NCBI GenBank assembly: GCA_002385625.1
Contig: DGDV01000039.1
Location: forward strand, 52,564 to 116,563
Direction of reading: 5' to 3'
DNA length: 64,000 nucleotides
Origin: Firmicutes bacterium UBA3943
GTDB lineage: Bacteria; Bacillota; UBA4882; UBA10575; UBA3943
In this document: positions 9,345 through 34,929 of the stretch, in pieces
How the letters are laid out: every line of letters starts with the position of its first letter
How positions within the stretch are numbered: the first letter of the stretch is position 1
Made by a program: the position numbers and the translations under genes
The notes under the pieces: generated by a model
What the model saw: the letters and a program-made list of their open reading frames with translations, nothing else
The model's database searches: none
What the model was told of the DNA's origin: nothing

Positions 9345-10607
9345 ATGTTTGCTCTGGTGGACTGCAACAACTTTTATGTCTCCTGTGAGCGGGTCTTCAA
9401 CCCGGCGCTGAATGGGCAACCCGTTGTGGTACTCTCCAATAACGACGGCTGCATTGTGTCCCGGTCCAATGAGGCCAAAGCCCTGGGTATTAAAATGGGG
9501 CAACCAGCCTTTGCAATTGCTGACTTTCTGGCTAAAAACAAGGTCCATGTCTTTTCCTCCAATTATGTCCTTTACGGGGATATGTCTCACCGGGTCATGA
9601 CGACTCTGGCCGAGTTTACGCCGGAGCTTGAGATCTACTCTATTGACGAGGCCTTTTTGAATCTCACCGGGATCACTCATGACCTGGCCTCTTATGGACG
9701 GCAGATCCGGCAGACCGTCTTGAAGAACACCGGTATCCAGGTGAGCATCGGCATTGCCGGCACCAAGGTATTGGCCAAGGTAGCTAACCACCTGGCAAAG
9801 CGAGTGCCGGGGTACGACGGCGTCTTGGTGCTGGACAGCCCGGATAAAATCCGGGCGGCCCTTGAGCAGACTGAAATTGAGGAGGTGTGGGGCATTGGCC
9901 GGCAGTATGCGGCGCTTTTAAAGGGGATAGGGGTGAAGACTGCCTGGGATTTTGGGCAATTGACCGATAGCTGGGTAAAGAAGAAAATGTCCGTTGTCGG
10001 GCTCCGGATAAAAAAGGAGCTTGCAGGGATCTCCTGCCTGGAACTGGAATTAGAACCCGTGGCCAAGAAGGCCATCTGTACCTCCCGTTCTTTTGGCAGG
10101 TCCCAGACCGAATTGGCCCAGCTTAGGGAGGCCGTCGCCACTTTTGCGAGTCAATGTGCCTATAAGCTTCGTAAACAGCGGACATGCGCCGGTGCCATCA
10201 TGGTTTTTATCCACACCAACGGCTATAATAAGAATGAGCCGCAGTATGCGCAGAATTTCAGTTGCCGGCTCCCAACGGCCACCAATAGCAGCATCACCCT
10301 GATCAAGTATGCTCTGTCAGGGCTGTCGGCCATCTATAAAGAGGGGTATAAATATAAAAAGGCCGGGGTAATGGTTTTGGACATTGTCCCCGAAGACCGG
10401 GTCCAGGGATCTTTGTTTGATTGTACCGACTATGGGAAGCATGCCGGGATCATGAAGGTTATGGACGAAATTAACGGGAAATATGGCCGTAATACCGTTA
10501 AATTCGCCGTGCAAGGCTCGGGCGTCAGGTGGAAGCTGCGCCAGGAAAAACTCTCGCCATCCTATACTACGCGCTGGGAGGATATCATCAAAGTAAGGTG
10601 TGATTGA
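9345..10607 (+). CDS. umuC: Y-family DNA polymerase, UmuC-like
   Basis: [18 protein letters not shown]...SIDEAFL motifs. ATG lies 2 nt after the umuD-like stop. Confidence 0.9.
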
Positions 10608-10608
10608 A

Positions 10609-11325
10609 GTGTGCTTTTTCTATGCCCTCAGTCATGAGGCGCAACGCTTGCAAAACCGCTATAACCTACCGGTGAGTCCTGATTTTGAATTTGCTCCGGT
10701 CTATTATACTTCGGGTTTTGAGTTTCCCAGGATGCCGGTGATCACCAATACGGAGCCCGACCGGCTCCAATTGTTCTCCTGGGGCTTGATTCCGGCTTGG
10801 ACCAAAACTTCTGAGGAAGCGGAGAAGATCCGGTCGTATACGCTGAATGCCCGCAGCGATTCCTTATTTGTGAAACCATCGTTCAAAAATGTGATCCGGA
10901 AGAAACGGTGTTTGGTCCCGGCCAGCGGCTTTTATGAGTGGCGGGAGATGGGGGGGAGGAAATACCCGTATTTCATCTACCTGAAGGACCAGGAGATATT
11001 CTCCCTGGCCGGTTTGTGGGAGGAATGGGTGGACAAAGCCACCGGAGAGTTGGTCAAAACCTATAGCATCATTACCACCGAGGCCAATCCGTTAATGGCG
11101 CGGATCCACAACACCAAAAAACGGATGCCTGTTATTTTATTGAGATCGGATGAGGAAAAGTGGTTAGAAGCAAAACTGCAAGATCATGAGATTGCCGCAT
11201 TAACCCGGCCCATTGATGAGGACCTAATGGCCGCCCATACCATTGGCAAACTGATCACATCCCGGACGGGAAACCGTAACGTACCGGCCGTCCAAGAACC
11301 TTTTGATTATGGATTGCACCTGTAA
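10609..11325 (+). CDS. SOS response-associated peptidase (SRAP/YedK family)
   Basis: GTG 10609 followed by TGC gives an N-terminal Met-Cys2, the catalytic nucleophile of SRAP. FSWGLIP, ASGFYEW and H...KRMP motifs are present. Confidence 0.85.
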   Translation: MCFFYALSHEAQRLQNRYNLPVSPDFEFAPVYYTSGFEFPRMPVITNTEPDRLQLFSWGLIPAWTKTSEEAEKIRSYTLNARSDSLFVKPSFKNVIRKKRCLVPASGFYEWREMGGRKYPYFIYLKDQEIFSLAGLWEEWVDKATGELVKTYSIITTEANPLMARIHNTKKRMPVILLRSDEEKWLEAKLQDHEIAALTRPIDEDLMAAHTIGKLITSRTGNRNVPAVQEPFDYGLHL

Positions 11326-14801: not shown

Positions 14802-14962
14802 TCATGGCAAAATAGAACTGTCCCGGTGAAAATTTGCCAAATGACCAATTGCGACCCACGTTGCGAAAGTATCTTTGCCAGACCAGACAAAGGAATCGGT
14901 TGACCACGGCTTCGTTGGACGGAGGGAGGTGCCCGCCCTTGATGAAGGAGGGCCAAAACCGC

Positions 14963-16141
14963 ATGCGCCAGATCATCCACCTGGATATGGATGCGTTCTT
15001 CGCCGCCATTGAGCAACATGATAACCCGGACTACCGGGGAAAACCCGTGATTGTAGGCGGTGATCCCCGGTCCCGGGGGGTGGTCTCCACCTGTTCTTAT
15101 GAGGCGCGGAAATTTGGGGTGCGGTCGGCCATGCCGCTGCGGGAGGCGGCCCGCCTTTGCCCCCATGGGATCTTTGTTCCGGGGCGGATGCGCCGTTATC
15201 AGGAGGTATCGGAACAGGTGATGGCGATCCTCCGGGAATATACGCCCTTGGTGGAGCAAATCTCCATAGATGAAGCTTTTATGGATGTTACAGGTTGTCA
15301 GGCTTTGTTTGGTCCGGCGGAGGCGATTGCCCGCAATGTGGTGGACCGGATCCGGCAGAACTTGGGGTTGTCCGCGTCCGTTGGGATTGCACCCAATAAG
15401 TTCCTGGCCAAATTGGCGTCGGACCTTCAAAAACCCGCAGGGTTTGTGGTTTTGACTCCTGAGAATTTCCAGACGGTTTTAGATCCCCTGCCCGTAAAGC
15501 GTTTGTGGGGTGTGGGGCCCCAGACGGAGAAGGAACTTTTGCGGATGGGCATCGAAACCATCAGTCAATTGCGCCGTCTTCCTGTGGACTATCTCTGCAA
15601 AAACCTGGGAGAGTTGGGGAGACAACTTTATCAGCTAGCCAACGGCATTGATGAGCGGCCGGTGATGCCGCCAGAGGAGGCGAAGAGCGTCGGGCATGAA
15701 GTGACCTTTCAGGAAGATAACAGTGATGAAGAGTTCCTGGCCAGTGTTTTGCTGGCTTTAGCGGACCGGGTGGCCCGGCGGCTGCGGCAAGCAGGACTGA
15801 AGGGGCGGACGGTAACGGTGAAGATTCGAAATGCGGATTTTAAGACGATTACCCGCAGCCGGACATTGATAGTGCCCACCGATTTTGAGGAGGAGATTTA
15901 CCAAAACGCATTGGAACTGGCGGAAGAAGCAAAGTGGGGCCACGGGCCAGTGCGTTTGCTGGGTGTTAGCATCAGTAATTTCACCGGAGAAGAGGGGGCG
16001 CAGCTTACACTGTTTCCTGAGACGAACCGGTCCGAGTTGGCAGAACTCCACCGGGCCGTGGATCGCCTGAGGGATCGTTTCGGTGAGGGGATTATTACCA
16101 GGGGGAGTTTAATCAAGAGGGACGGTAGAAGACGCGGTTAA
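14963..16141 (+). CDS. dinB: DNA polymerase IV
   Basis: MRQIIHLDMDAFFAAIEQ canonical N-terminus and SIDEAFMDVT. The track ORF start at 14834 is an upstream extension. Confidence 0.9.
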   Translation: MRQIIHLDMDAFFAAIEQHDNPDYRGKPVIVGGDPRSRGVVSTCSYEARKFGVRSAMPLREAARLCPHGIFVPGRMRRYQEVSEQVMAILREYTPLVEQISIDEAFMDVTGCQALFGPAEAIARNVVDRIRQNLGLSASVGIAPNKFLAKLASDLQKPAGFVVLTPENFQTVLDPLPVKRLWGVGPQTEKELLRMGIETISQLRRLPVDYLCKNLGELGRQLYQLANGIDERPVMPPEEAKSVGHEVTFQEDNSDEEFLASVLLALADRVARRLRQAGLKGRTVTVKIRNADFKTITRSRTLIVPTDFEEEIYQNALELAEEAKWGHGPVRLLGVSISNFTGEEGAQLTLFPETNRSELAELHRAVDRLRDRFGEGIITRGSLIKRDGRRRG

Positions 16142-18806: not shown

Positions 18807-19275
18807 GTTTCTACTCCTTTCCGGTGGCGCCGTGTATTAATAAATAATAATTTTTGAAGAAAGTGCGTTGTTGGGTTGGGGACATGTGACATAACAGTTA
18901 ACATAAAATCATCTTCTCTACCGGGCTGGTGATTCCTTTCTGTAAATCTTGTGTCCTTTTCCGGTTTTCGGTAAGGCAAGCACAGTGCCTGTTACATACA
19001 AGATAAAACCAGCTTTAAGCTGGAACTATGTCTGTAATGCCTTAATGTAATTTTAAGTTAACAAGCAGGAAGTATAAAGCAGTAAATTATGGACAAACCG
19101 TTACTTTCTTACGGTGGCTCAGGACTGCCGGAGGATGGGCGATACCCCGTTGCTATGCCCGTTTTTGGCCCGGCGGCAAAAAGGAAACCAAGATCTACGG
19201 GATGGCGGGACACGGCAGGAATTCTTATTATGGTATGGAATAAAACAAGCTTGGAAGAGAGGGAGAGGTGCCGCA

Positions 19276-20493
19276 GTGAAAACAGAGTATTCCGTCACTG
19301 AACTTACCCGCTATTTGGCGTCCCTAATCACGGGAGATCCGGTGTTACAGGGTGTTTGGGTCCGGGGGGAGATCTCCAATTTCACCCGCCATACCTCCGG
19401 GCATATGTATTTTACCCTCAAAGACGATGCGGCACGGATCCGGGCGGTGATGTTCCGGGGGCAAAACCGTACCTTGCGGTTTACTCCGGAGAATGGCATG
19501 CTGGTTTTGGCCTTTGGTTCCGTGGGAGTATATGAGCGTAATGGTGATTACCAAATTTATGTAGAGATGTTGGAGCCGGTTGGACAAGGCTCTTTAAACC
19601 TCGCCTTTGAACAGCTAAAAGAGAAGCTGGGCAAAGAGGGGCTGTTTGCACCGGAACGAAAACGCCCCTTGCCCCGCTTGCCCCAAAAGGTGGCCTTGAT
19701 TACCTCGCCGACGGGCGCCGCTGTGCGCGACCTCATCAATATCCTGCGCCGCCGCCGTCCTAACTTGGATATTCTATTGATCCCCGCCCTGGTGCAGGGG
19801 GAAGAAGCGCCGGAGAGCCTGGTGGCAGCGCTGGGCACCGCAGGGCAGATCAGCGATTTGGACCTGGTGATCATCGGCCGGGGCGGCGGTTCCTTGGAAG
19901 AACTGTGGGCTTTTAACGACGAAAGGGTGGCCCGGGCGATTGCTGCTTCATCCCATCCGGTGATTTCCGCCGTGGGCCATGAAACCGACTTTACCATTGC
20001 GGATTTTGTGGCGGATTTGCGGGCGCCTACGCCGTCGGCTGCCGCTGAATTGGCGGTGCCGGACCAAAACGAGTTAACCCGGGACGTTCTTGCCTTGCGG
20101 GAACGCTTGTCCCGTGCGGCCAGGCGTTACCAGGCGCAAAAAAGTGCAGAGTTAAACCGGCTGGCCAACTCGGTGGTATTGACGCGGCCGGAAAGATGGC
20201 TCAATCCCATGCGCCAACGGCTGGATGAAGCCGAGGGACGGTTGCGCCGGATTCTGCCCCGTATATTGCAGGAACGACAGCTGGTCTTCGGCAATCTGAT
20301 AGGGAAACTCAATGCCCTCAGTCCTTTGGCCACTTTGGCCAGGGGTTACAGCATTACACGACGTATTGCCGACGGGGCTTTTGTTTCCGACAGTGAGATG
20401 GTGGAAATCGGTGAAGAGGTTGCCGTCAGGTTGGCCCGGGGTGAACTGATCTGTCGGGTTGAGCAATGTAAAAAGGAGGCAGAACTGGTTTGA
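19276..20493 (+). CDS. xseA: Exodeoxyribonuclease VII large subunit
   Basis: VKTEYSVTELTRYLASLI...VWVRGEISNF...HMYFTLKD OB-fold N-terminus. GTG 19276 follows GGGAGAGG. The track start 19114 is an extension. Confidence 0.9.
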   Translation: MKTEYSVTELTRYLASLITGDPVLQGVWVRGEISNFTRHTSGHMYFTLKDDAARIRAVMFRGQNRTLRFTPENGMLVLAFGSVGVYERNGDYQIYVEMLEPVGQGSLNLAFEQLKEKLGKEGLFAPERKRPLPRLPQKVALITSPTGAAVRDLINILRRRRPNLDILLIPALVQGEEAPESLVAALGTAGQISDLDLVIIGRGGGSLEELWAFNDERVARAIAASSHPVISAVGHETDFTIADFVADLRAPTPSAAAELAVPDQNELTRDVLALRERLSRAARRYQAQKSAELNRLANSVVLTRPERWLNPMRQRLDEAEGRLRRILPRILQERQLVFGNLIGKLNALSPLATLARGYSITRRIADGAFVSDSEMVEIGEEVAVRLARGELICRVEQCKKEAELV

Positions 20494-20759
20494 CGGAAAA
20501 AGCCAAGACCAAGGCCGAAAAGACCGAACAGAGTTTTGAAGAGGCCATGCAAAGGTTGGAAGAGATCGTGACCCGCCTGGAAGGTGGGACTACCGCCCTG
20601 GAGGAAAGCCTGCAATTATTTGAAGAAGGAGCGGCCTTGGCCCGGTATTGCCAGGAGAAGCTGCAAGCGGCCCAAGGCAGATTGGATATTTTGTTGCGCC
20701 GGGATGAAGAGGGAGTTGTGACCGAACCCTTTCAACTGCAACTTGAGGAGGAAGCCTAG
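20490..20759 (+). CDS. xseB: Exodeoxyribonuclease VII small subunit
   Basis: SFEEAMQRLEEIVTRLEGG..ALEESLQLFEEG signature; overlaps the xseA stop. Confidence 0.85.
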   Translation: MTEKAKTKAEKTEQSFEEAMQRLEEIVTRLEGGTTALEESLQLFEEGAALARYCQEKLQAAQGRLDILLRRDEEGVVTEPFQLQLEEEA

Positions 20760-20761
20760 TT

Positions 20762-21658
20762 TTGAAGATTGCTGATTATATTGATGGTTACGACCGGTAC
20801 CGGCAATGGATTGAGGAGGGGTTGGACCGCTATCTACCCCAGGCGAACACGCTACCTGCTTCATTGCACCAATCCATGCGGTATAGCGCCTGCGGGGGCG
20901 GGAAACGTTTACGGGGCGTCTGTTGCCTGCTGGCAGCGGAACTGTTTAATTCCGACCCCGCTGGTGTGCTCCCCATGGCCTGCGCCTTGGAGATGGTCCA
21001 TGCTTATTCGTTGATCCATGATGATTTGCCCTGTATGGACGATGACGATCTGCGCAGGGGAAAACCCACCAATCACAAGGTTTTTGGCGAAGCTGTCGCG
21101 CTGATGGCGGGGAATGCCTTGTTGACCTTAGCCGTTGAGACGGTTTTGACACGGACGCCCCGGGCGATTCCCCGGGAAAGGCTGCTGGCAGCCCTGCAGG
21201 AGCTGGTGGTTGCCGCAGGACCCCAGGGCATGCTGGGCGGACAAGTTTTGGACCTGGCGGCGCAAGGCCGGCGGATCACCTATGAGGAATTGAAAGAGAT
21301 CCACCGGCGGAAGACCGGCGCCCTTATTTTGGCCTCGATCCGGACCGGTGCTCTTTTAAGCGGTGCAGCCGACGATGATCTGCAGGCTCTGACGGAGTAT
21401 GGGACTGCCCTGGGGTTGGCTTTTCAGATCACCGACGACCTGTTGGACGTGACCGGTTCCACGCAGGAACTGGGCAAACCCGTCGGTAGTGACCGACGTA
21501 ATGAAAAGGCTACTTATCCGGCGCTTTTCGGGGTCGAACAATCCCTGGCGATGGCGAAAGAAGAAACGGAAAAAGCCGGGCGGGCACTGGACCGGTTCGG
21601 TGAGCGGGCAACCGCCCTCCGCCGGCTGGCAACTTATGTCTTGGTCAGGAAACAATAA
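20762..21658 (+). CDS. ispA: Farnesyl/geranylgeranyl diphosphate synthase
   Basis: First and second Asp-rich motifs LIHDDLPCMDDDDLRRG and FQITDDLLD. Confidence 0.9.
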   Translation: MKIADYIDGYDRYRQWIEEGLDRYLPQANTLPASLHQSMRYSACGGGKRLRGVCCLLAAELFNSDPAGVLPMACALEMVHAYSLIHDDLPCMDDDDLRRGKPTNHKVFGEAVALMAGNALLTLAVETVLTRTPRAIPRERLLAALQELVVAAGPQGMLGGQVLDLAAQGRRITYEELKEIHRRKTGALILASIRTGALLSGAADDDLQALTEYGTALGLAFQITDDLLDVTGSTQELGKPVGSDRRNEKATYPALFGVEQSLAMAKEETEKAGRALDRFGERATALRRLATYVLVRKQ

Positions 21659-21751: not shown

Positions 21752-22201
21752 GTGAAGAATATTATCGGAGAATTTCGTTACAACCAAGTGTTCTGGGTCT
21801 CCTTCACCGCTTGGTTTGTGGCCCAGACCTTAAAAGGAATCTTATGTTTTATCAAAACAGGGAAGATTGATTTTCGCCGCTTTGTCGGTGCCGGCGGGAT
21901 GCCCAGTTCCCACTCGGCCTTTGTCTCGGCTCTGGCCTTTGGTATTGGGGAGATGGAGGGCTGGTCATCGCCGGTGACCGCCTTGGCCCTGGTCTTTGCG
22001 TTTATTGTTATGTACGATGCGGCGGGGGTTCGTTTGGCTGCTAGCAAACAGGCGGCTTCCCTCAATAAATTGGTGGATGAACTCTTTGAAGAAGGCGAAT
22101 TTCACCAGGAGCGGCTGAAGGAGTTATTGGGGCATACGCCGGTGGAGGTCTTTTGCGGGGCTTTGCTTGGGGTTGTTATCAGCGCTTTGCTGTTACGTTG
22201 A
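21752..22201 (+). CDS. Divergent PAP2 family membrane protein (DUF212)
   Basis: GGMPSSHSAFVSALA and MYDAAGVR motifs. Confidence 0.8.
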   Translation: MKNIIGEFRYNQVFWVSFTAWFVAQTLKGILCFIKTGKIDFRRFVGAGGMPSSHSAFVSALAFGIGEMEGWSSPVTALALVFAFIVMYDAAGVRLAASKQAASLNKLVDELFEEGEFHQERLKELLGHTPVEVFCGALLGVVISALLLR

Positions 22202-22284: not shown

Positions 22285-22314
22285 TTGTCCCCGCCGGAAT
22301 AATTATGGTATAAT
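22285..22314 (+). promoter_or_regulatory. Putative sigma-A promoter with extended -10 in front of the OLE region
   Basis: TTGTCC (22285-22290), an 18-nt spacer, then TGgTATAAT (22306-22314). Confidence 0.45.
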
Positions 22315-22319
22315 GAAGG

Positions 22320-22940
22320 GGACTGGGATGGTGTAGTATTCTAGTCGGGACCCCTTTTTCGAAGACGGGCCTAAAAATCCGTTAAGGGCACATCGATGAA
22401 GTCCCTGGTGCTGGCTGCCGACGCCCAGTCGGGGGCTGGTGCTGGGGGTTAAGGTGGATGGGGCGATCTGCAATGGCATGCAGGCGTTGACCCTACCACC
22501 GCGGAGACCCAAGTTCGTGGGGAACTTGCGTGAACTACGGCTTGGGGTGGAACCTGCATTCGGTACGGTAACTTTTACTTAGTGTCGATGCAGTGTAGCC
22601 TGCCTTGAGTGAAAGGGGGGGATAGCGGGTGTCAAGCTTAAATCCCTGAAGGCCTGGGGATTTTGGCTCTTTGCCGCTTGAAACCCATTTTGCAAAAGAG
22701 GCTAGGAAAAGCGGGAACCGTTGAGGAAAACTCCTAGACTATTCGCTTCGGCGACATCCGTTGGGGATTGCAGTGTGGTCTAAGTGGTAATCCAGTCTTC
22801 TTTTCGGCAACGAAAGAAAGTGGCCTGAGAGGGAAACCGTCAAGACGGCAACGTCTTGGAGGCCATTGGGAAAACCTACTGGACCTAAGCCACAATTTTT
22901 CCCCAGCTGATGACCATCCCATATCATTATGTCATTTAAG
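22320..22940 (+). ncRNA. ole: OLE (ornate, large, extremophilic) RNA; ends approximate
   Basis: ~620 nt without a credible ORF. Tetraloop hairpins at 22418-22432, 22743-22754 (UUCG), 22802-22815 (GCAA) and 22841-22858 (GCAA). Sits in the characteristic xseAB-ispA-[ole]-oapA-dxs context. Confidence 0.7.
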
Positions 22941-22953
22941 TTGCGTTGGAGGA

Positions 22954-23565
22954 ATGAAAAGCGTGTCGAATCTGCGTCAGGCCTGTAGAACCGGTATCCT
23001 GACCTTTTTTTTATCTATCATCGTCTCTTCGCTCTCGCGAGTGTGGGCATCCACCTTTATCTTTTATTATTCGATCATTCCGCTGTTTTTGGTGATCGGG
23101 GTGGGGATCCTCTTTGACATTGTCGGTACAGCGGTAACAGCAGCCAATGAAACACCCTTGCACGCGATGGCCGCAGATAAAGTCTTCGGTGCCAAACAAG
23201 CCATTTGGTTGGTGCGTCGCGCCGACCGGGTGGCTAATTTTTGCAATGATGTGGTAGGGGATATTTGCGGTACGGCCAGCGGTGGTTTGACCGCTGTGTT
23301 GGTATATGAGTTGGTGACACGTAGCCAGGGCTTAAACATGGATATAGTTAATGTCATCAGTTTGGGACTGGTGGCGGCGCTGACCGTCGGCGGCAAGGCC
23401 TGGGGAAAGAGCACTGCCATTAATAGGGCGGACCAGATTGTCTTCAAAGTTGGACAAGCCTTGGCAACCTGGGATAGGTTTACCGGGAGAAGGCATGAGA
23501 CTGATCGGAAGGGGAAAAATACACATTCTCAGAAGAGAAATGCTTCACGGAAGCGGGGTTCTTGA
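22954..23565 (+). CDS. oapA: OLE-associated protein A-like small 4-TM membrane protein
   Basis: GGAGGA RBS directly before ATG 22954. About 4 predicted TM helices; lies immediately downstream of the OLE region and overlaps the dxs start. The track ORF start 22768 runs into the RNA and is rejected. Confidence 0.65.
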   Translation: MKSVSNLRQACRTGILTFFLSIIVSSLSRVWASTFIFYYSIIPLFLVIGVGILFDIVGTAVTAANETPLHAMAADKVFGAKQAIWLVRRADRVANFCNDVVGDICGTASGGLTAVLVYELVTRSQGLNMDIVNVISLGLVAALTVGGKAWGKSTAINRADQIVFKVGQALATWDRFTGRRHETDRKGKNTHSQKRNASRKRGS

Positions 23566-25463
23566 TGGATCGGATACTGGACAAACTAAACCTGCCGGAA
23601 GACTTAAAAAAATTATCGAATAAAGAGTTGACAGCCCTTGCTGGGGAGCTGCGGGAGATTATCATCAATACCGTGGCCCACAACGGGGGGCATTTAGCTT
23701 CAAGCCTGGGTGTAGTGGAATTAACCCTGGCCTTACATGCGGTCTTAAATAGCCCCGAGGACCACATCCTGTGGGATGTGGGGCATCAGGCCTATGTACA
23801 TAAATTGTTAACCGGTCGTCTGGAGCGTTTTCATACTCTAAGGCAATGGGGAGGTCTGAGCGGTTTTCCCAGGGCCGATGAGAGCCCTCATGATCTTTTT
23901 ACCTCCGGCCACAGTTCCACATCCATTTCCGCTGCGGTGGGTTTGGCCAAGGCCCGGGATATCCAGGGACGTAAAAACCGGATTGTGGCTGTGATCGGTG
24001 ACGGTTCCATGACCGGCGGCCTTGCTTTTGAGGCGTTGAACCACGGGGGCCAACTCCAGACTGATTTGGTGGTAGTCCTTAATGACAATGAGATGTCCAT
24101 CTCACCGAACGTGGGGGCGCTTACCGCCTATTTGAACCGCTTGCGGACAAAGCCTCAGGTTTATCGGTTGAAAAAGACCATTGGGGATATTGTGTCCCAG
24201 ATTCCCAAAGTGGGTAAATCTGCCATTCATTATTTGGAGAAGTTGAACGATAGTTTAACCTACTTGTTCATTCCTGGTGTTGTCTTTGAGGAACTGGGCT
24301 TTACTTACTTGGGCCCGGTGGACGGCCACAATATTGCACTCTTGAAGCGGACTTTGCAAGATGCCTTTGATCATGGAGGACCCGTTCTGATTCATGCCAT
24401 CACCAAAAAAGGGAAGGGTTACGAACCGGCCGAAGCAGAGCCTTGCCGCTTTCACAGCACAACCCCCTTTGACCGTGAGACCGGGCAACCCTATAGAACA
24501 CCTAAGAACGCCACTTATACCCAGGTTTTTGGCGATACCATGGTGGAATTGGCCAAAGAACACCCACAGTTGGTGGCTATTACCGCCGCCATGCCGGAGG
24601 GCACCGGTTTGAACCGGTTTTCGGAGGAATTTCCGGATCGCTTTTTTGATGTAGGCATTGCCGAATCCCATGCGGTAACCATGGCGGCTGGCCTGGCTCG
24701 TGGCGGGATGCGGCCGGTGGTGGCGGTCTATTCGACTTTCTTCCAACGGGCCTATGATCAGGTAGTCCACGATGTCTGCCTCCAGAACCTTCCCGTGGTT
24801 TTTTGCTTGGATCGGGCCGGGGTGGTTGGGGAAGACGGCCCCACCCACCACGGGGTATTTGACATTGCCTACCTGCGTCACCTGCCGAATATGGCAATTT
24901 TGGCTCCGAAGGACGAAGGAGAGTTTCGGCAGATGCTTCGGACGGTCATCAATCATGACGGCCCAGCGGCCATCCGCTATCCCCGGGGTGAGGGGGAAGG
25001 CCTGCCGCTGGACCGGGAGTTTACGGAGCTGCCCTGGGGTAAAGGGGAGGTATTGGCCACCGGCGATCAAGTATTAATCCTTGCTATCGGTAATATGGTG
25101 GCACCCGCCAGGCAGGCGGCGGCCACCTTGGCGCGCAGGGGTATTGCCTGCAGCCTTGTTAATCCACGATTTATCAAGCCCCTGGACAAGGAACTCCTCC
25201 TGCCGCTGGCCCGGAAGATCCAACGTGTGGTTACAGTTGAAGACCATGTGCTGGCGGGTGGGTTTGGTGCTGCCGTCCTCGAGCTGCTGAGTGAGGAAGG
25301 TCTATCCGAGGTCCAAGTGGAACGCATTGGTTATCCCGATTGCTTCCTGCCCCACGGGTCAACCGCCGACTTACACCGGGCCTATGGCTTGACGGAGGAA
25401 AACATTGTCCGGACGGTGATGGCCCTGGCGGCCCCTGAACGCAAAATAAAAAGTGCCAAGTAA
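23565..25463 (+). CDS. dxs: 1-deoxy-D-xylulose-5-phosphate synthase
   Basis: GGHLASSLGVVELT, DVGHQAY and GDGSMTGG (TPP) motifs; full length. Confidence 0.95.
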   Translation: MDRILDKLNLPEDLKKLSNKELTALAGELREIIINTVAHNGGHLASSLGVVELTLALHAVLNSPEDHILWDVGHQAYVHKLLTGRLERFHTLRQWGGLSGFPRADESPHDLFTSGHSSTSISAAVGLAKARDIQGRKNRIVAVIGDGSMTGGLAFEALNHGGQLQTDLVVVLNDNEMSISPNVGALTAYLNRLRTKPQVYRLKKTIGDIVSQIPKVGKSAIHYLEKLNDSLTYLFIPGVVFEELGFTYLGPVDGHNIALLKRTLQDAFDHGGPVLIHAITKKGKGYEPAEAEPCRFHSTTPFDRETGQPYRTPKNATYTQVFGDTMVELAKEHPQLVAITAAMPEGTGLNRFSEEFPDRFFDVGIAESHAVTMAAGLARGGMRPVVAVYSTFFQRAYDQVVHDVCLQNLPVVFCLDRAGVVGEDGPTHHGVFDIAYLRHLPNMAILAPKDEGEFRQMLRTVINHDGPAAIRYPRGEGEGLPLDREFTELPWGKGEVLATGDQVLILAIGNMVAPARQAAATLARRGIACSLVNPRFIKPLDKELLLPLARKIQRVVTVEDHVLAGGFGAAVLELLSEEGLSEVQVERIGYPDCFLPHGSTADLHRAYGLTEENIVRTVMALAAPERKIKSAK

Positions 25464-25588: not shown

Positions 25589-25753
25589 GCACCTTGGTTG
25601 TCTGTACGCCTGTACGCTTAAACAGGTTAAATCGGTCCAAAGAGTGCTGTACGGCAATGCCCTATTTAGGAAGGATAATGACCAACCGATAAAATTATAT
25701 ATAGAAAAATTGATATTGATATTGCATTTTAATTTGAGATGGGAGTGTTGAAG

Positions 25754-27607
25754 ATGCGGAAGAATTTATACCTATTGCTGTTCCTCGTTTTTGTACTGTT
25801 TTCGGTTCTGCCGACTGGGACTGCCGATTCTTCCTTTGGCTTTGTGACCATTGCCAAGGAGGGAGATTTTATTGATATCGATGCGGAGACCATTAAGTTC
25901 TTATTCAAAGTTCCGGCCGGTACCGATGTCACGTTTTTGCTGGGCGAAAGCCCGGAGACGCTGAAACCGGTTAAAAGCATCCGCAATTATGACCACAAAA
26001 ACGGGCTGCGGATTGGCAACTTGCAAGCAGGGAAGAAATACTATTACCAGATTCAAGCAACAAACGGCGGGGAGAGTAAAACCAGTGAAGTGTTCTCTTT
26101 TGTTAAATTGAATTTCGCCCGCCGGGCGAAGATGGCGGAATGGGCACGGACAAGCGTCTTTTATCAAGTCTTTGTACGCAGTTTTTATGACGGAAAAGGT
26201 GAGGACGGCATTGGTGACTTCCAGGGACTGAAGAAGAAACTGGGTTACATAAAAAGCCTTGGCGCAGACGGCATCTGGTTGTTGCCGATCTTTGATTCTC
26301 CCAGTTACCATGGGTATGATGTGGTTGACTACCTGAAGATTGACCCGGATTATGGAACCATGAAGGATTTCCAAGAGTTTTTAGCGGAAGCCCATAAGCT
26401 GGGGATTAAAGTGATTTTGGACCTGCCTGTTAATCATACCTCCGTTCAACATCCCTGGTTTGAAGAGTCGGCTAGTGACAAGTATGGGGAGAAACGGGAC
26501 TATTATGTTTGGGCGGATCTGATGGATGACCGGACGGTTCGGGGCCCATGGGGCCAGAATACTATCTGGTATAACAAGAATGGTGATTACTATACAGCGC
26601 TATTTTGGAACGGCATGCCTGATTTGAATCTGCGCAATCCCAAAGTACGGCAGGAGATTAAAGAGATTGCCCGATTTTGGCTGGACCCCAACGGTGACGG
26701 CGATACCAGTGACGGTGTGGATGGGTTCCGCTTGGATGCGGCGCTACATATTGATCATATCGACCAGGAAGTAACGCTTAAATGGTGGCAAGAGTTTGAT
26801 AGTTATGTGAAATCCATCAACCCCAATGCATATTTGGTCGGGGAAGTCTGGACCGCCCCTGATAAGATCGCACCTTTCCTGCAAAGTATGGACAGCACGT
26901 TGAATTTCAACATTGCACCCAAGATTTTTGTGGCCTCCGGCGGGGGATTCAGCTACGATCTGGCTGCAGAGGTCAATGCCATGTACGACGAGTATCGGAA
27001 GTACAACAAAGACTTTATGGATGCTACCTTCTTGACTAATCATGACCAGAACCGGGTTGCTTCAATGTTCCGCGGGAACATCAACCGGCTCAAAATGATC
27101 ACTTCAATCTTTCTGACCTTGCCCGGAACCCCCTTTATCTATTACGGTGAAGAGCTCGGGCAACAAGGCAAAAAACCCGATGAATGCCTCCGGGAACCCA
27201 TGGATTGGTATGCGTCGGCCCAGGGCCCCGGCATGACCGATATGAGCAAGTGGACCTATGTGAAAAGTATGTACACCAAACCCGGGGACGGCATCTCCGT
27301 GGAAGAACAGGAGAATGATGAAAACAGCCTCTTGAATCACTATCGAAGGCTCATCCGGATCCGGAAGGAGAACCCGTTGCTGTTTGTAGGGAATCTTAAG
27401 AATATCAATCTTCCTTCGTTGACTGCCTATGAGGTTTCCGGCAAGGGCTATGATTATGTACTCCAGGTGATCCACAACGGGAACGCCCAGGCGAAGACCA
27501 TTAGCGTTCAACCCGGTGCTGTGGAGCTCATCTCCGGGCAGAAGATTACCGGTGAACAACTGGAAATTGCCCCGTTTAGCTCGGTTATTTTGAAGATCAC
27601 CAAATAA
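25754..27607 (+). CDS. Secreted GH13 alpha-amylase family glycosidase
   Basis: Signal peptide MRKNLYLLLFLVFVLFSVLPTGTA. GH13 regions DGIWLLPIF, GFRLDAALH, GEVW and FLTNHDQNR. N-terminal Fn3-like module. Confidence 0.85.
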   Translation: MRKNLYLLLFLVFVLFSVLPTGTADSSFGFVTIAKEGDFIDIDAETIKFLFKVPAGTDVTFLLGESPETLKPVKSIRNYDHKNGLRIGNLQAGKKYYYQIQATNGGESKTSEVFSFVKLNFARRAKMAEWARTSVFYQVFVRSFYDGKGEDGIGDFQGLKKKLGYIKSLGADGIWLLPIFDSPSYHGYDVVDYLKIDPDYGTMKDFQEFLAEAHKLGIKVILDLPVNHTSVQHPWFEESASDKYGEKRDYYVWADLMDDRTVRGPWGQNTIWYNKNGDYYTALFWNGMPDLNLRNPKVRQEIKEIARFWLDPNGDGDTSDGVDGFRLDAALHIDHIDQEVTLKWWQEFDSYVKSINPNAYLVGEVWTAPDKIAPFLQSMDSTLNFNIAPKIFVASGGGFSYDLAAEVNAMYDEYRKYNKDFMDATFLTNHDQNRVASMFRGNINRLKMITSIFLTLPGTPFIYYGEELGQQGKKPDECLREPMDWYASAQGPGMTDMSKWTYVKSMYTKPGDGISVEEQENDENSLLNHYRRLIRIRKENPLLFVGNLKNINLPSLTAYEVSGKGYDYVLQVIHNGNAQAKTISVQPGAVELISGQKITGEQLEIAPFSSVILKITK

Positions 27608-27630
27608 GCTGAAGATCTTATGAGTTTTTC

Positions 27631-27653
27631 GCCGCCTCCGGGCGGCTTTTTTA
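27631..27653 (+). terminator. Rho-independent terminator
   Basis: GCCGCC-TCCG-GGCGGC followed by TTTTTT. Confidence 0.8.
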
Positions 27654-27747
27654 TTATTCTCCAGCGGTAGGAAAATAAAGAAAAGTTCAGAATATATATA
27701 ATCAAATAATTTATGGTAATATAACAGAAGGGGCGTTGGATTAAGCC

Positions 27748-30108
27748 ATGGTGCACCGGCCATGTTCCAATAACTGTTGGCAATGGATGAAAGGGAAACT
27801 GCCGAATTTATCGGGTATGATTCGTTATTATGGATACCGGTTCAAACAATGGCGGGATAACACACTTAAAGAAATAAAGAGCCCCAACAATACGACAATG
27901 CTTGTGGCTGTCCTGTTGCTGTCCTTTGCGTTCTCTTTGACTGTGGTTTTTTTGGTTGGTCTGTTTACGCCGTTGCCGCCGCCACAGATGCCCATTGCCA
28001 GTGAGGTTTATGATAGCAAAGGGAATTTGGTATCCACCTTTTTCAGCCAGCACCGGCGTCCGGTGAAATTAAAGGAGGTTCCCCTGTTTTTACGCCAGGC
28101 CGTTTTAGCCGTGGAGGATCACCGTTTTTACCAGCATAAGGGGATAAATCTCGGTCGGATCCTCAAGGCGGCATGGCACGATTTGGTCCATCAGAGTCTG
28201 GATCAGGGGGCAAGCACCATCACCCAGCAACTGGCGAAGAATGTCTATTTGACCCATGAACGGAGCTTTTCCCGGAAGATCCGGGAGCTCTTTTATGCTA
28301 TTAAATTGGAGATGCAGTTTTCAAAGGATGAGATCTTCGAGTTATATCTCAACCAAATCTACTTTGGCCATGGGGCATACGGGGTTAGGGTGGCGGCCAA
28401 GACCTATTTCCGTAAGGAGTTAAATGAGTTAAATGAGGCGGAGATGGCTTTGCTAGCAGGTTTGCCGCGGGGCCCGGCCTTTTATTCGCCCTATCGGCAC
28501 CCGGAGGCTGCCAGGGAACGTTTGTTGTTGGTTTTGCGTCGAATGCTGGAGTGCGGTTATATCACTGAAGGGGAATACGTGAGGTATTCCCGGCAGAAGT
28601 TGGCCTTGGCGGGCTTGGAAACGAATAAGACCGCTCCGTATTTTATGGATTTAATCCAACGGGAGGTGGCGCGGCTCTTCCCGGAGAGTCCGGAACTGTT
28701 ATATACCGCAGGGTTGCGCATCGAGACCACTTTGGACCTTACCATGCAGGAGACGGCAAATCGCTGTTTTAACCAAGGAATTCCCAAATTAACAGTGAAT
28801 AAGGAGGGTATTGCCCAGCCCCAGGGAGTTTTAATTGCCATTGATCCCACAAATGGGGAGATCCGGGCTTTAATCGGAGGAACGGATTTTAGCAGTTCCC
28901 AGTTTAACCGGGCAATACAAGCCAAGCGCCAACCAGGCTCATCCTTCAAACCCCTCTTGTATGCAGCGGCGTTGAGTAACGGTCATACGTTGGCCAGTTC
29001 CTTTGATTTAACGCCAAAGACCTATTATGTTGGGGGTAGGTGTTATCGCCCCACCGACAATGGGAATGAGTATGTCAGTGGTTATATCTCCCTCCGGAAA
29101 GCCCTGGCTTGTTCCAGCAATGTGGTGGCTGTGCGCTTGATTCATGACATCGGGCCGCAGTATGTGGCGGATTTTGCGGTGAAGCTGGGTATTGAATCAA
29201 AGCTTTATCCCACGCTCTCTTTGGCCTTGGGCACCAGTGAAGTTACCCCCCTTGAATTGGCGAAAGCCTATTTACCCCTGGCAAATGGCGGGCTTAGCTT
29301 CAAGCCGGTGTTTATCAGGAGAATAAGCGATCGTTCCGGTCGTGTGTTATTTGAAGAAAAACCCCAAAAGGGCCGGCGGGTGCTGGACAGGAGGGTGGCG
29401 TACCTGGTGACCGATGCCATGCGCGGTGTCTTTCAAGCGGGCGGTACCGCAGCCAATGTCGGCCATTTGGTAAAGCGGCCGGCGGCCGGGAAGACAGGAA
29501 CCACGGACCGGAACCGTGACGCTTGGTTTGTGGGGTATACACCGGATTTGTTAACTGTTGTTTTTGTCGGCTGTGACAACCACGAACAAAGGTTGCCGGG
29601 GGCGGCCAACCGTGTCGCGGCTCCAATTTGGGCCAATTTCATGGCGGAGGCGCTGAAAGGTAAACCGGTGAAACAGTTCCCAACCCCCTCCGATTTGCTC
29701 TCTGTTGCTGTCTGTGAAGTCTCCGGCCAATTACCGTCGGATGGGTGTCGACGCCGGAATGAACTGTTTATTCCCGGGACTGAACCGAAAGAGCAGTGCT
29801 GGTATCACCAGGCCAAATGGGTGGAGGTGGATGTCTGCAGCCGTTCGGGCGCCTTGATGAGTGTTTTCTGTCGTGACGGAGAGTCGCGCTTGTTAAGGTC
29901 CGATGAGGCGCCAAACGAAGTATGTAGGCAATGCCGGGGGAAACAGTGGCCAGGAGGCTTTACTGGTGAAGGCAGCCGCGCAGGAAAACAAAAAAAGGAT
30001 AATTATGGGTATAAGGGCGGACAAGACTATTTTTGGCATGAAGACGACGATGAGGAAGAGGACGGATTGTTGCAGCGGCTGCGGAGAATCATCCGCAAAG
30101 CGAAATGA
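27748..30108 (+). CDS. Class A penicillin-binding protein (PBP1A family; glycosyltransferase + transpeptidase) with a Cys-rich C-terminal extension
   Basis: GT51 motifs EDHRFYQHKG and GASTITQQ. Transpeptidase motifs SSFKP, SSN and KTGTT. The start is uncertain (27748, 27787 or 27817). Confidence 0.85.
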   Translation: MVHRPCSNNCWQWMKGKLPNLSGMIRYYGYRFKQWRDNTLKEIKSPNNTTMLVAVLLLSFAFSLTVVFLVGLFTPLPPPQMPIASEVYDSKGNLVSTFFSQHRRPVKLKEVPLFLRQAVLAVEDHRFYQHKGINLGRILKAAWHDLVHQSLDQGASTITQQLAKNVYLTHERSFSRKIRELFYAIKLEMQFSKDEIFELYLNQIYFGHGAYGVRVAAKTYFRKELNELNEAEMALLAGLPRGPAFYSPYRHPEAARERLLLVLRRMLECGYITEGEYVRYSRQKLALAGLETNKTAPYFMDLIQREVARLFPESPELLYTAGLRIETTLDLTMQETANRCFNQGIPKLTVNKEGIAQPQGVLIAIDPTNGEIRALIGGTDFSSSQFNRAIQAKRQPGSSFKPLLYAAALSNGHTLASSFDLTPKTYYVGGRCYRPTDNGNEYVSGYISLRKALACSSNVVAVRLIHDIGPQYVADFAVKLGIESKLYPTLSLALGTSEVTPLELAKAYLPLANGGLSFKPVFIRRISDRSGRVLFEEKPQKGRRVLDRRVAYLVTDAMRGVFQAGGTAANVGHLVKRPAAGKTGTTDRNRDAWFVGYTPDLLTVVFVGCDNHEQRLPGAANRVAAPIWANFMAEALKGKPVKQFPTPSDLLSVAVCEVSGQLPSDGCRRRNELFIPGTEPKEQCWYHQAKWVEVDVCSRSGALMSVFCRDGESRLLRSDEAPNEVCRQCRGKQWPGGFTGEGSRAGKQKKDNYGYKGGQDYFWHEDDDEEEDGLLQRLRRIIRKAK

Positions 30109-34083: not shown

Positions 34084-34665
34084 ATGCTAAAGACAATAAA
34101 CAATATAGCGGATTTTCTTGAGAGGGAGCTGGCATTATCAGCGGATAAAAAGGAAATATTGGTCTATTCTCTGCAGATATTGTTTTTGTTCTGCGGCACT
34201 TTTTTAGGAATCCTCTCTGTGGCCTTCTTGGTCAGCCGTTTGTGGCAGGATATTTTCTCGGAGGCGATCATTGCTTCTCTGACGATGGCAAGTTACCGCT
34301 TTGTTTCGGGTGGCTTTCATTTTAAAAATTTTATCCTTTGTATGATTATATCATCCCTTATCCCTGCGGGCATTGCCGTTCTTGCTGTGATACTTGTCCA
34401 ACAAGGCCTGAATCTCCCGACGCCGGGGTGGTGGTTGGCGTGGCTGCTGATGCTTGGTATAGCTGTTTTCTTCGCGCCACGGCCGGTGGAGGAACGACCA
34501 ATTGGCAAGAAGGAAGCTAAAAAGTTTAAGTGCTTATCCATTGTAATGTTGACTTGCTGGGGAATTATTATTAACCTGTTACCGCCTGCGATTGCTCTGT
34601 CGGTTCTGATTGGGCTGGGCATTCAGACTGCTTCAATTATTACAGGACATGCCGAAGGCAAATGA
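34084..34665 (+). CDS. agrB: AgrB family autoinducing-peptide processing/export endopeptidase
   Basis: Polytopic membrane protein. GGFHFKNFILC gives His79 and Cys86, the same His-x6-Cys spacing as the S. aureus AgrB catalytic pair H77/C84. Confidence 0.85.
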   Translation: MLKTINNIADFLERELALSADKKEILVYSLQILFLFCGTFLGILSVAFLVSRLWQDIFSEAIIASLTMASYRFVSGGFHFKNFILCMIISSLIPAGIAVLAVILVQQGLNLPTPGWWLAWLLMLGIAVFFAPRPVEERPIGKKEAKKFKCLSIVMLTCWGIIINLLPPAIALSVLIGLGIQTASIITGHAEGK

Positions 34666-34775
34666 TTTATCAGATTGGTGAAACCAAGCGACAGAAAGGA
34701 GGGATGACAGTACAACTGAATAAGGCACTGGATCTGTGGGTTGTGTTGTGTAATAATTTTGAAGGAGGGTTTCGA

Positions 34776-34898: not shown

Positions 34899-34929
34899 TT
34901 ATAAACTTACTGATTTAGGAAGGTAATAA

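What the first reader, a model, noticed from the sequence alone, without database searches (positions are those of the whole stretch)
22285..22953. ~620-nt ORF-free, hairpin-dense segment inside the isoprenoid operon: probable OLE (ornate, large, extremophilic) RNA
Seen in the sequence: the 750 nt between the DUF212 gene and ATG 22954 holds no credible coding frame. It contains only RBS-less, mutually overlapping ORFs on both strands, and the 265-aa track ORF looks like a membrane protein only after its internal ATG, which is preceded by GGAGGA. The segment starts behind an extended -10 promoter (TTGTCC-18 nt-TGgTATAAT). It is packed with stable tetraloop hairpins: CCGAC-GCCCA-GUCGG at 22418-22432, UCGC-UUCG-GCGA at 22743-22754, UUUCG-GCAA-CGAAA at 22802-22815 and CAAGACG-GCAA-CGUCUUG at 22841-22858. 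Established knowledge: OLE RNA (~610 nt) is restricted to anaerobic or extremophilic Firmicutes. It typically sits in xseA-xseB-ispA-[ole]-oapA-dxs, directly upstream of the small membrane protein OapA, with which it forms a membrane-bound RNP linked to alcohol, cold and Mg2+ stress tolerance. Its biochemical function is still unknown. Inference: length, position and neighbours here match that arrangement, so this is very likely an ole locus and the most unusual element in the window.
Basis: partly seen in the sequence, partly recalled or inferred. Interest (0 to 1): 0.85.

Follow-up and report, generated by a model that had tools for sequence, protein, structure and literature searches.

The report
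A typical OLE RNA gene

Summary
Confirmed. The Rfam OLE model (RF01071) matches window 22312-22933 (+) over its full length (1-616 of 616) at 524.4 bits against a gathering score of 50, E = 6e-151. It is the only Rfam family found in the 64-kb window.

The sequence forms 146 of the 159 consensus base pairs. It agrees with 231 of 236 columns that are at least 90% conserved in 70 other OLE RNAs. It carries the published functional landmarks: the A-rich L4 loop, the L5 and L6 loops, the palindromic GGCC in the P9 loop, a 12-bp P3/P3.1, and P13 with a GNRA loop and a one-base bulge (the OapB site).

The promoter-like site upstream sits where many other OLE loci have one.

The downstream gene encodes a 200-aa OapA. 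It has the invariant DxxxD motif and a weak similarity to the CNNM domain. It starts at GTG 22963, not ATG 22954. The gene order xseA-xseB-ispA-DUF212-ole-oapA-dxs recurs in Clostridia-type genomes.

The host is an uncultured anaerobic-digester member of the Bacillota.

The only peculiarities are minor. One otherwise invariant C-G pair in P2 is a compensatory U-A here, and one invariant A is a C. The kind is already known, so interest is low to moderate.

The parts
22285..22314 (+). Proximal promoter-like site: -35 TTGTCC (22285-22290), 18-nt spacer, extended -10 TGgTATAAT (22306-22314). The predicted start is about 22321, 3-4 nt before P1.
   Evidence: One search found the site. One search shows that 39 of 71 OLE loci have one at the same position, against 2 of 65 controls. 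A proximal ole promoter is experimentally proven in H. halodurans (PMC3413148). Its activity here is inferred.
22312..22933 (+). OLE RNA gene (extent of the Rfam RF01071 match). The likely mature RNA runs from about 22321 to about 22925, roughly 605 nt.
   Evidence: 524.4 bits, E = 6e-151, model positions 1-616 of 616; 146 of 159 consensus pairs are canonical; 231 of 236 conserved columns agree; covariation supports the structure.
22325..22332 (+). P1, 5' strand (GGGAUGGU). It pairs with 22913-22920 (ACCAUCCC) and closes the whole RNA.
   Evidence: 8 of 8 pairs are canonical here. Helix 1 is 91.6% paired across 71 sequences, and 7 of its 8 pairs show double changes. The MFE fold also predicts it.
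22334..22344 (+). P2, 5' strand (UAGU-AUU-CUAG). It pairs with 22734-22741 (CUAGACUA). It contains the palindromic CUAG, near one of the two mapped OapA sites. The outermost pair, 22334-22741, is U-A here.
   Evidence: columns 14/558: C-G in 70 sequences and U-A only in the window, a compensatory double change. The rest of P2 is 100% paired. The OapA-site assignment comes from PMC12265935 (citing Block 2011) and was not tested here.
22347..22360 (+). P3/P3.1, 5' strand. It pairs with 22705-22719 for 12 bp in all (2+3+7), with a small internal loop and bulge. This is the helix proposed to span the membrane.
   Evidence: the distal 6 pairs are 92.3% paired, and 5 of those 6 covary. The proximal part aligns poorly (60.9% paired). 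The typical 12-bp length is stated in PMC12265935.
22364..22383 (+). P4 hairpin with the A-rich loop CCUAAAAA (22370-22377). This is dimer bridge B1, an intermolecular A-A helix.
   Evidence: 6 of 6 pairs form. In one search the loop bases C-U-A-A-A-A-A are invariant. The role comes from the cryo-EM work (PMC12286853).
22386..22402 (+). P4a/J4a-5: GGGCACAUCGAUGAAGU, with the palindrome CAUCGAUG at 22391-22398. It holds the second mapped OapA site and one strand of the kink-turn bound by OapC.
   Evidence: It is identical to the Rfam consensus. Its invariance in alignment A1 is by construction, because the loci were retrieved with this 16-mer. The roles come from PMC9723947, PMC12286853 and PMC12265935.
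22402..22448 (+). P5/P5.1 long hairpin with loop GCCCA (22423-22427).
   Evidence: 19 of 20 pairs form; helix 7 is 96.8% paired, and 14 of its 20 pairs show double changes.
22453..22500 (+). P6/P6.1 with loop AAUGGCAU. Together with L5 it forms dimer bridge B2. The P6 internal loop is the proposed bS21 site.
   Evidence: 9 of 9 and 5 of 5 pairs form. AAUGGCAU is almost invariant. The roles come from PMC12286853 and PMC12054373.
22508..22593 (+). P7 (22508-22546) and P8 (22554-22593), the variable stems. Both are present, so this is the full-length type. The P8 loop is 11 nt longer than the Rfam consensus.
   Evidence: Variants that lack P7/P8 are described in PMC11332333.
22602..22702 (+). P9 long arm. 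Its terminal loop GAAGGCCU carries the palindrome GGCC (22651-22654), the symmetric kissing loop of dimer bridge B3.
   Evidence: GGCC is at least 90% conserved. PMC12286853 reports covariation among GGCC, GAUC and AGCU.
22723..22754 (+). Two small hairpins flanking the P2 3' strand: GAG-GAAAA-CUC (22723-22733) and the variable UCGC-UUCG-GCGA (22743-22754).
   Evidence: helices 18 and 19.
22755..22912 (+). 3' domain (domain 2). It comprises the nested helices 22755-65/22902-12, 22774-78/22890-94 and P12.2 22791-96/22878-83. P13 (22798-22818) has the GNRA loop GCAA (22807-10) and a bulged U at 22803, which together form the OapB site. P14.1 (22839-22860) has a second GCAA loop. An otherwise invariant A is a C at 22901.
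   Evidence: helices 20-26 are 76-99.8% paired and strongly covarying. The OapB determinants (GNRA loop plus 1-nt bulge) come from PMC7936274.
22963..23565 (+). oapA: a 200-aa membrane protein. It has the DxxxD motif (NDVVGD, D96 and D100), four hydrophobic segments and a basic C-terminal tail. The ribosome-binding site GGAGGA lies at 22948-22953.
   Evidence: the exact protein is called from GTG 22963; both D residues are invariant in 68 of 68 homologues, and the last 40 residues hold 12 K/R; a CNNM hit at E = 7.9e-5, 22.8 bits, below the 28.4-bit cutoff, as the literature reports for OapA (PMC11332333).
19114..22201 (+). Upstream genes on the same strand: xseA (19114-20493), xseB (20490-20759), the FPP synthase ispA (20762-21658), and a DUF212/divergent-PAP2 membrane protein (21752-22201).
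   Evidence: ispA matches NF045485 at 356 bits against a cutoff of 275. DUF212 lies between ispA and ole in 8 of 64 other loci.
23562..25463 (+). dxs (DXP synthase). It overlaps the oapA stop codon by 4 nt.
   Evidence: DXP_synthase_N at E = 6e-118.

Best explanation
Window 22312-22933 (+) is a functional, full-length ole gene that encodes OLE RNA (Rfam RF01071).

**How it is made (inferred).** It is most likely transcribed from its own sigma-70-type promoter at 22285-22314, and probably also by read-through from xseA-xseB-ispA-DUF212. No terminator separates it from oapA and dxs.

**What the sequence shows.** The RNA of about 605 nt can form the family's roughly 25-helix structure. P1 and P2 bring the two ends together. 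P3/P3.1 (12 bp) leads into a 5' domain (P4-P9). A 3' domain (P10-P15) follows.

**By homology with the H. halodurans and Clostridium systems (inferred here, shown there).**
- Two RNAs dimerise through the L4 A-rich loop, the L5/L6 loops and the GGCC loop of P9.
- The co-encoded OapA, a CNNM-like membrane protein with a DxxxD motif, binds near P2 and P4a and holds the RNA at the membrane, possibly through it.
- OapB docks on the P13 GNRA loop and bulge.
- OapC docks on the kink-turn beside P5.

**The mechanism I commit to (about 0.45).** The RNA acts as the regulatory or sensor module of OapA, a putative divalent-cation transporter. In that role it replaces the CBS and CorC domains of the all-protein MpfA/CNNM transporters, and the particle tunes Mg2+ and other stress responses (alcohol, cold, poor carbon sources).
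For: **Identity**
- full-length OLE match, 524.4 bits, E = 6e-151.
- 146 of 159 consensus pairs are canonical.
- 231 of 236 columns conserved at 90% or more are shared.
- mapped onto 71 OLEs, the structure is 85.2% paired, against 70.4% in shuffles and 39-46% with partners slid. Double changes occur at 146 of 186 pairs.
- MFE z-score of -4.2.

**Intact partner**
- a 200-aa OapA with an invariant DxxxD motif, four hydrophobic segments and a basic tail.
- a weak CNNM match.

**Context**
- the canonical gene order.

**Promoter**
-.

**Landmarks for dimerisation and protein binding**
- All are present in the sequence. They were read against PMC12286853, PMC7936274, PMC9723947 and PMC12265935.

**Host**
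- an anaerobic-digester, spore-forming member of the Bacillota, with Rnf, CotJ, YunB and SLH proteins.

**Link to CNNM/MpfA**
- PMC11332333 and PMC12265935.
Against: Nothing argues against the identification.

**For function in this organism there are no expression data.**
- The 5' and 3' ends are predicted only.
- The oapB and oapC genes are not in the window, so their presence in this genome is unknown.

**Three bases that are invariant in the 70 other OLEs differ here.**
- Positions 22334 and 22741 compensate each other.
- Position 22901, A to C, does not.

**The mechanism itself is unproven in any species.**
- OapA transport activity has not been demonstrated.
- The transmembrane model is a proposal built from partial cryo-EM maps.
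Confidence: 0.9

Rival explanations
1. It is OLE RNA, but its core job is catalysis. On this view it is a ribozyme acting on an unknown substrate at the membrane, and OapA serves only as an anchor.
For: The size, the roughly 25% of near-invariant nucleotides and the ornate structure are typical of ribozymes, an argument made in PMC11332333 and PMC12265935. Many invariant single-stranded bases are kept here.
Against: No self-cleavage, splicing or other chemistry has been found in about 20 years (PMC3413148 reports no spliced or cleaved products). The cryo-EM work shows that many conserved loops serve dimerisation (PMC12286853). An invariant unpaired A is a C here at 22901, which a strict active-site role for that base would not tolerate.
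Confidence: 0.15
2. It is OLE RNA acting mainly as a cytoplasmic scaffold or signalling hub ('bTOR'). It would sequester or present proteins such as bS21, OapC and ArgR to couple translation and metabolism to stress, independently of any transport by OapA.
For: The binding sites for bS21 and OapC (the P5/P6 joining regions) are conserved in the window. The literature reports pleiotropic phenotypes and many pulled-down proteins (PMC12054373, PMC10898510, PMC12265935).
Against: The near-obligate pairing with oapA (68 of 70 loci) and the anticorrelation with MpfA (PMC11332333) point to a function centred on the membrane protein. The two views are not mutually exclusive.
Confidence: 0.3
3. The segment is protein-coding. 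The candidates are the 265-aa TTG ORF at 22768-23565 or the minus-strand 62-69-aa ORFs. Alternatively, it is a decayed, non-functional OLE remnant.
For: ORFs of 62-265 aa do overlap the segment.
Against: Gene callers start the membrane protein at 22963 in all assemblies. The overlapped sequence is conserved at the RNA level with compensatory pair changes. A remnant would not keep 231 of 236 conserved columns, 92% of pairs, an intact oapA and a promoter.
Confidence: 0.01

Closest known systems
OLE RNA (Rfam RF01071), full-length type; the reference examples are Halalkalibacterium halodurans ole and Clostridium acetobutylicum OLE (cryo-EM)
   Same: The length, all helices P1-P15 and nearly all conserved nucleotides match. 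So do the A-rich L4, the L5/L6 loops, the GGCC P9 loop, P13 with its GNRA loop and bulge, the proximal promoter, oapA immediately downstream, and the xseAB-ispA ... dxs neighbourhood.
   Different: - Only about 73-75% nucleotide identity to the nearest sampled relatives over the aligned parts.
- U-A instead of the otherwise invariant C-G at the outer P2 pair.
- C instead of an invariant A at 22901.
- A P8 loop 11 nt longer than the consensus.
- A DUF212 gene between ispA and ole, an arrangement shared with several Clostridia.
- dxs is followed by an alpha-amylase gene and a PBP1A gene. From my own recollection, which I did not check here, Bacilli have tlyA/nadK/argR/recN at that position.
OapA (OLE-associated protein A)
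   Same: About 200 aa, four hydrophobic segments, an invariant DxxxD motif, a basic C-terminal tail, a sub-threshold match to Pfam CNNM (PF01595), and a position directly 3' of ole.
   Different: 35-54% identity to the homologues sampled. No experimental data exist for this protein, and no structure solved by experiment is related at the sequence level.
MpfA/CorB/CNNM divalent-cation transporters
   Same: A distantly related transmembrane domain. The literature proposes them as the all-protein functional equivalents of the OLE-OapA particle.
   Different: They carry CBS and CorC domains, need no RNA, lack the DxxxD motif, and are anticorrelated with OLE across genomes (PMC11332333).
Other large ornate bacterial RNAs (GOLLD, ROOL, raiA motif)
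   Same: They are large, highly structured, function-unknown non-coding RNAs. GOLLD and ROOL also self-assemble into homo-oligomers (PMC12286853).
   Different: They are unrelated in sequence and structure and none was detected here: OLE was the only Rfam hit in the window. No membrane protein partner is reported for them in what I read.

Membership tests
OLE RNA (RF01071) | A covariance-model score above the curated threshold, over the full length of the model | tested here: met
   524.4 bits against a gathering score of 50, model positions 1-616 of 616, not truncated.
OLE RNA (RF01071) | The consensus secondary structure can form (about 25 helices) | tested here: met
   146 of 159 Rfam pairs are canonical. 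P1, P2 and P3 give 28 of 28 canonical pairs; the structure is supported by covariation across 71 sequences.
OLE RNA (RF01071) | The highly conserved nucleotides (about 25% of positions) are retained | tested here: met
   231 of 236 columns conserved at 90% or more in 70 other OLEs are identical here. Sixteen of those columns were fixed by the retrieval pattern used.
OLE RNA (RF01071) | P7, P8 and a long P9 are present (full-length type rather than variant 1 or 2) | tested here: met
   P7 at 22508-22546, P8 at 22554-22593, P9 at 22602-22702. The variant types are defined in PMC11332333.
OLE RNA (RF01071) | Dimerisation elements: the A-rich L4, the L5/L6 loops and a palindromic tetranucleotide in the P9 loop | tested here: met
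   The sequence elements are present at 22370-77, 22423-27, 22473-78 and 22651-54 (GGCC). Dimer formation itself cannot be tested here.
OLE RNA (RF01071) | OapB site: a GNRA tetraloop on P13 plus a single-nucleotide bulge | tested here: met
   P13 at 22798-22818 has the loop GCAA and a bulged U at 22803. The criteria come from PMC7936274.
OLE RNA (RF01071) | The host is an anaerobic or extremophilic member of the Bacillota | tested here: met
   Identical contigs come from anaerobic-digester metagenomes. The window encodes SLH proteins, CotJABC, YunB and an Rnf complex. The nearest OLE relatives are Bacillota MAGs. No exact taxon was obtained.
OLE RNA (RF01071) | The oapA gene lies immediately downstream | tested here: met
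   The gene is at 22963-23565 on the same strand, 42 nt after the end of P1. The same arrangement holds in 68 of 70 other loci.
OLE RNA (RF01071) | An abundant, stable transcript of about 600 nt that localises to the membrane | not testable with these tools
   This needs RNA-seq or a northern blot, plus fractionation.
OLE RNP complex | The oapB (KOW-type) and oapC (YbxF/L7Ae-type) genes are present in the genome | not testable with these tools
   No L7Ae or KOW family was listed among the precomputed Pfam hits of the genes called across the window. In model species these genes are not linked to ole.
OapA | The DxxxD motif | tested here: met
   NDVVGD is present. D96 and D100 are invariant in 68 of 68 OLE-adjacent homologues. 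PMC11332333 names the motif as distinctive.
OapA | Four transmembrane helices and a distant CNNM-like fold | tested here: inconclusive
   Hydropathy shows segments at about 10-30, 35-60 and 127-147, plus a weaker one at about 100-118. The Pfam CNNM hit has E = 7.9e-5 but 22.8 bits, below the 28.4-bit cutoff. No structure prediction was run.

The most novel reading that the evidence does not exclude
The DUF212 gene encodes a divergent PAP2-type membrane protein, and its family name suggests a phosphatase. It lies between the FPP synthase gene and ole here and in about one in eight sampled OLE loci, all of them Clostridia-type. The most novel reading is that this placement is not a passenger. 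On that view it marks a functional link between the OLE-OapA particle and polyprenyl-phosphate (lipid carrier) metabolism. For example, the membrane-embedded RNA might sense or gate isoprenoid-lipid status. The two unusual base changes in this OLE (the U-A in P2 and C22901) would be lineage adaptations.
Probability: 0.1. Interest if true: 0.55.

Novelty: already known. Interest (0 to 1): 0.3.

Why it matters
OLE is one of the largest and best-conserved bacterial non-coding RNAs whose biochemical function is still unknown. Recent work proposes that it is the first natural RNA to span a membrane. A new instance adds little in itself.

Its practical value is threefold:
1. It prevents mis-annotation of a 750-nt 'gap' and of a falsely extended 265-aa oapA.
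2. It adds a divergent sequence from an uncultured digester lineage. That sequence supplies a rare compensatory change (C-G to U-A) at an otherwise invariant P2 pair, and it shows that one 'invariant' unpaired A can be a C. Both are useful constraints for structural models of the unresolved 3' domain.
3. It documents that the ispA-DUF212-ole-oapA-dxs arrangement and the proximal promoter are recurrent features.

Tried and rejected
- **Protein-coding reading of the segment.** Rejected.
- **ATG 22954 as the oapA start.** Rejected in favour of GTG 22963, on the ribosome-binding-site spacing and the exact-protein look-up.
- **Terminators flanking ole.** None was found between DUF212 and ole or between ole and oapA. 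I therefore infer co-transcription with the neighbouring genes in addition to the proximal promoter.
- **Identifying the organism.**
  - The taxon therefore stays at 'uncultured anaerobic-digester Bacillota'.
- **Population variation as a test of constraint.** Six metagenome copies differ from the window at only 0-10 sites per 12-20 kb, and none of those sites lies in OLE. That is too few to be informative.
- **A solved structure or NCBIfam model for OapA.** None was found.
- **Block et al. 2011 (OapA footprints).** The paper is not held in the library. The OapA-site assignments therefore rest on the summary in PMC12265935.
- **A literature search for 'OLE RNA', ispA and dxs together.** It returned only metabolic-engineering papers.
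- **DUF212/YuiD and the MAG accession.** They are not mentioned in the main text of the 2024 OLE bioinformatics paper or in the one supplement held as text.
- **Not run, because the answer would not change the verdict.** These were structure prediction and fold search for OapA, and the large protein-database searches.

Full report
**Observation**

- The DUF212 gene ends at 22201. No credible coding frame follows until the membrane-protein gene.
- The only ORFs of at least 50 aa in between are three minus-strand ORFs of 62-69 aa and a TTG-started upstream extension of the membrane-protein ORF.
- The four tetraloop hairpins are at exactly the stated coordinates.
- The promoter-like site TTGTCC-18-TGgTATAAT at 22285-22314 was found by the consensus scan. 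About two such sites are expected by chance in that 2-kb region, so it is not significant on its own.

**Identification**

- A scan of the whole window against Rfam 15 at gathering thresholds returned a single family. OLE (RF01071) matches 22312-22933 (+) at 524.4 bits against a threshold of 50, E = 6e-151. The match covers model positions 1-616 of 616 and is not truncated.
- I parsed that alignment. 146 of the 159 consensus base pairs are canonical in this sequence. The mismatches are concentrated in the variable stems P7 and P9.
- The RNA folds 4.2 standard deviations more stably than dinucleotide shuffles.

**Comparison with other OLE RNAs**

About 90 of them contain OLE by nhmmer.
- I aligned the window with 70 full-length examples (alignment A1). 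The window agrees with 231 of 236 columns that are at least 90% conserved in the other 70. Sixteen of those columns were fixed by the retrieval pattern.
- I mapped the Rfam structure, plus P1, P2 and P3/P3.1 read from the sequence, onto A1.
  - 85.2% of cells are paired, against 70.4% in shuffles and 39-46% when partners are slid.
  - Double changes occur at 146 of 186 pairs.
- The structure was derived from this family, so this is a consistency check and not an independent discovery.

**Peculiarities of this copy**

- Three positions that are invariant in the other 70 sequences differ here.
- Positions 22334 (C to U) and 22741 (G to A) are the two sides of the outermost P2 pair. That pair is C-G in 70 of 70 others and U-A only here, a clean compensatory change (columns 14/558).
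- Position 22901 is C in place of an invariant unpaired A in the 3' domain.
- The P8 loop is 11 nt longer than the Rfam consensus.
- None of this takes the RNA out of the full-length class described by Fernando and Breaker (PMC11332333).

**Published landmarks**

All of them are present.

| Landmark | Window coordinates | Published role | Source |
|---|---|---|---|
| A-rich L4 loop | 22370-22377 | Dimer bridge B1 | PMC12286853 |
| L5 loop GCCCA and L6 loop AAUGGCAU | 22423-22427 and 22473-22478 | Dimer bridge B2 | PMC12286853 |
| Palindromic GGCC in the P9 loop | 22651-22654 | Dimer bridge B3 | PMC12286853 |
| 12-bp P3/P3.1 | 22347-22360 with 22705-22719 | Proposed membrane-spanning helix | PMC12265935 |
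| CAUCGAUG palindrome and the J4a/5, J5/6 and J6/7 joining regions | palindrome at 22391-22398 | Form the OapC kink-turn | PMC9723947, PMC12286853 |
| P13 with GCAA loop and bulged U22803 | 22798-22818 | OapB-binding determinants | PMC7936274 |
| P14.1 with a second GCAA loop | 22839-22860 | Weak secondary OapB site | PMC7936274 |

**Promoter and transcript ends**

- In H. halodurans a promoter immediately upstream of ole is experimentally active, and the RNA 5' ends map next to P1 (PMC3413148).
- Here the -10 box ends 15 nt before the invariant G at 22330. That places the predicted start near 22321, 3-4 nt before P1.
- Across A1, 39 of 71 loci have a -10/-35 pair at the equivalent position, against 2 of 65 control windows 300 nt further upstream. 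The promoter is therefore a conserved feature of the locus.
- No terminator-like site lies on either side of ole. I infer read-through from the upstream genes and into oapA-dxs, as reported for H. halodurans.

**Partner protein**

- GGAGGA (22948-22953) abuts ATG 22954, so that ATG is too close to the ribosome-binding site to be the start. The in-frame GTG at 22963 is 9 nt downstream.
- The 200-aa product from that GTG is found exactly in 99 blocks of public assemblies.
- It has hydrophobic segments at about 10-30, 35-60, 100-118 and 127-147, and a basic tail.
- Its DxxxD motif (NDVVGD) has both aspartates invariant in 68 of 68 OLE-adjacent homologues. The literature names this motif as distinctive of OapA (PMC11332333).
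- Pfam gives only a sub-threshold CNNM hit (E = 7.9e-5, 22.8 bits against a 28.4-bit cutoff). That matches the published behaviour of OapA against this model.
- No PDB relative by sequence and no NCBIfam model exists.

**Gene context**

- The order is xseA, xseB, FPP synthase (ispA), DUF212, ole, oapA, dxs.
- In the sampled loci, oapA follows ole in 68 of 70, dxs follows in 41 of 53, and ispA precedes in 46 of 64.
- A DUF212 gene sits between ispA and ole in 8 of 64. These include Caloramator, Alkaliphilus, Acidaminobacter and Clostridiaceae.
- The arrangement is therefore a recurrent Clostridia-type variant, not a novelty.

**Host**

- The same 12-20 kb is 99.94-100% identical in six independent assemblies, mostly from anaerobic digesters. 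One of them is the NCBI MAG GCA_035402565.1.
- The window also encodes SLH proteins, CotJABC, YunB, Rnf, MreBCD and MinCDE. These fit a spore-forming anaerobic member of the Bacillota, which is the expected kind of host for OLE.

**Mechanism**

Shown here:
- The RNA can adopt the family structure.
- It carries every mapped interaction element.
- It is linked to an intact oapA.

Inferred by homology:
- It dimerises.
- It is held at the membrane by OapA, or possibly passes through it.
- It binds OapB and OapC.
- It is needed for tolerance of alcohol, cold, excess Mg2+ and poor carbon sources.

The most likely biochemical role is as the regulatory module of a CNNM-like cation transporter, about 0.45 in my estimate. 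The rivals are a ribozyme and a cytoplasmic signalling scaffold, and these roles overlap. This remains unproven in any species.

**Verdict**

The element is an ordinary, full-length member of an already known RNA family, and standard annotation with Rfam detects it. It is the most remarkable feature of the window in kind, but not a new one.

Noticed in passing
window 22334 and 22741; 22901: The outer P2 base pair is C-G in 70 of 70 other OLE RNAs sampled but U-A here, a compensatory double change. An unpaired A that is invariant in the other 70 is a C at 22901.
   Followed up: partly
window 21752-22201, and loci L029, L032, L047, L050, L055, L061, L064, L081, L083, L090: A DUF212 (divergent PAP2) membrane-protein gene lies between ispA and ole in this window and in about one in eight sampled OLE loci, all Clostridia-type. 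I did not find it mentioned in the OLE papers I read. It may be linked to ispA rather than to ole.
   Followed up: partly
window 23199-23235 (+), inside oapA: A 17-pair GC-rich inverted repeat followed by AATTTTTGCA lies inside the oapA coding region. About three terminator-like sites are expected by chance in the region, so it is probably nothing. It would sit between ole and dxs.
   Followed up: no
window about 8900-11320 and 14834-16141: A cluster that looks like a DNA-damage response: an S24 LexA-like peptidase, a Y-family polymerase and an SRAP protein in a row, with a second Y-family polymerase and a PHP-domain protein a few kb downstream.
   Followed up: no
window 34084-34900: An AgrB-family gene is followed by a 78-aa ORF with no Pfam match, possibly an Agr-type peptide quorum-sensing pair.
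   Followed up: no
window 47735-52779: A complete Rnf (RnfCDGEAB-type) ion-translocating ferredoxin:NAD oxidoreductase operon, consistent with an anaerobic lifestyle.
   Followed up: no
L123 (MAG labelled Fibrobacter sp., 2334-nt contig): An OLE fragment with xseA-xseB-ispA upstream lies on a short contig binned into a non-Bacillota MAG. It is probably binning contamination, like the 24 non-Bacillota hits mentioned in PMC11332333.
   Followed up: no
window 25739-30108: dxs is followed by an alpha-amylase family gene and a class A penicillin-binding protein. From my own recollection, which I did not check here, Bacilli OLE loci have tlyA/nadK/argR/recN at that position.
   Followed up: no
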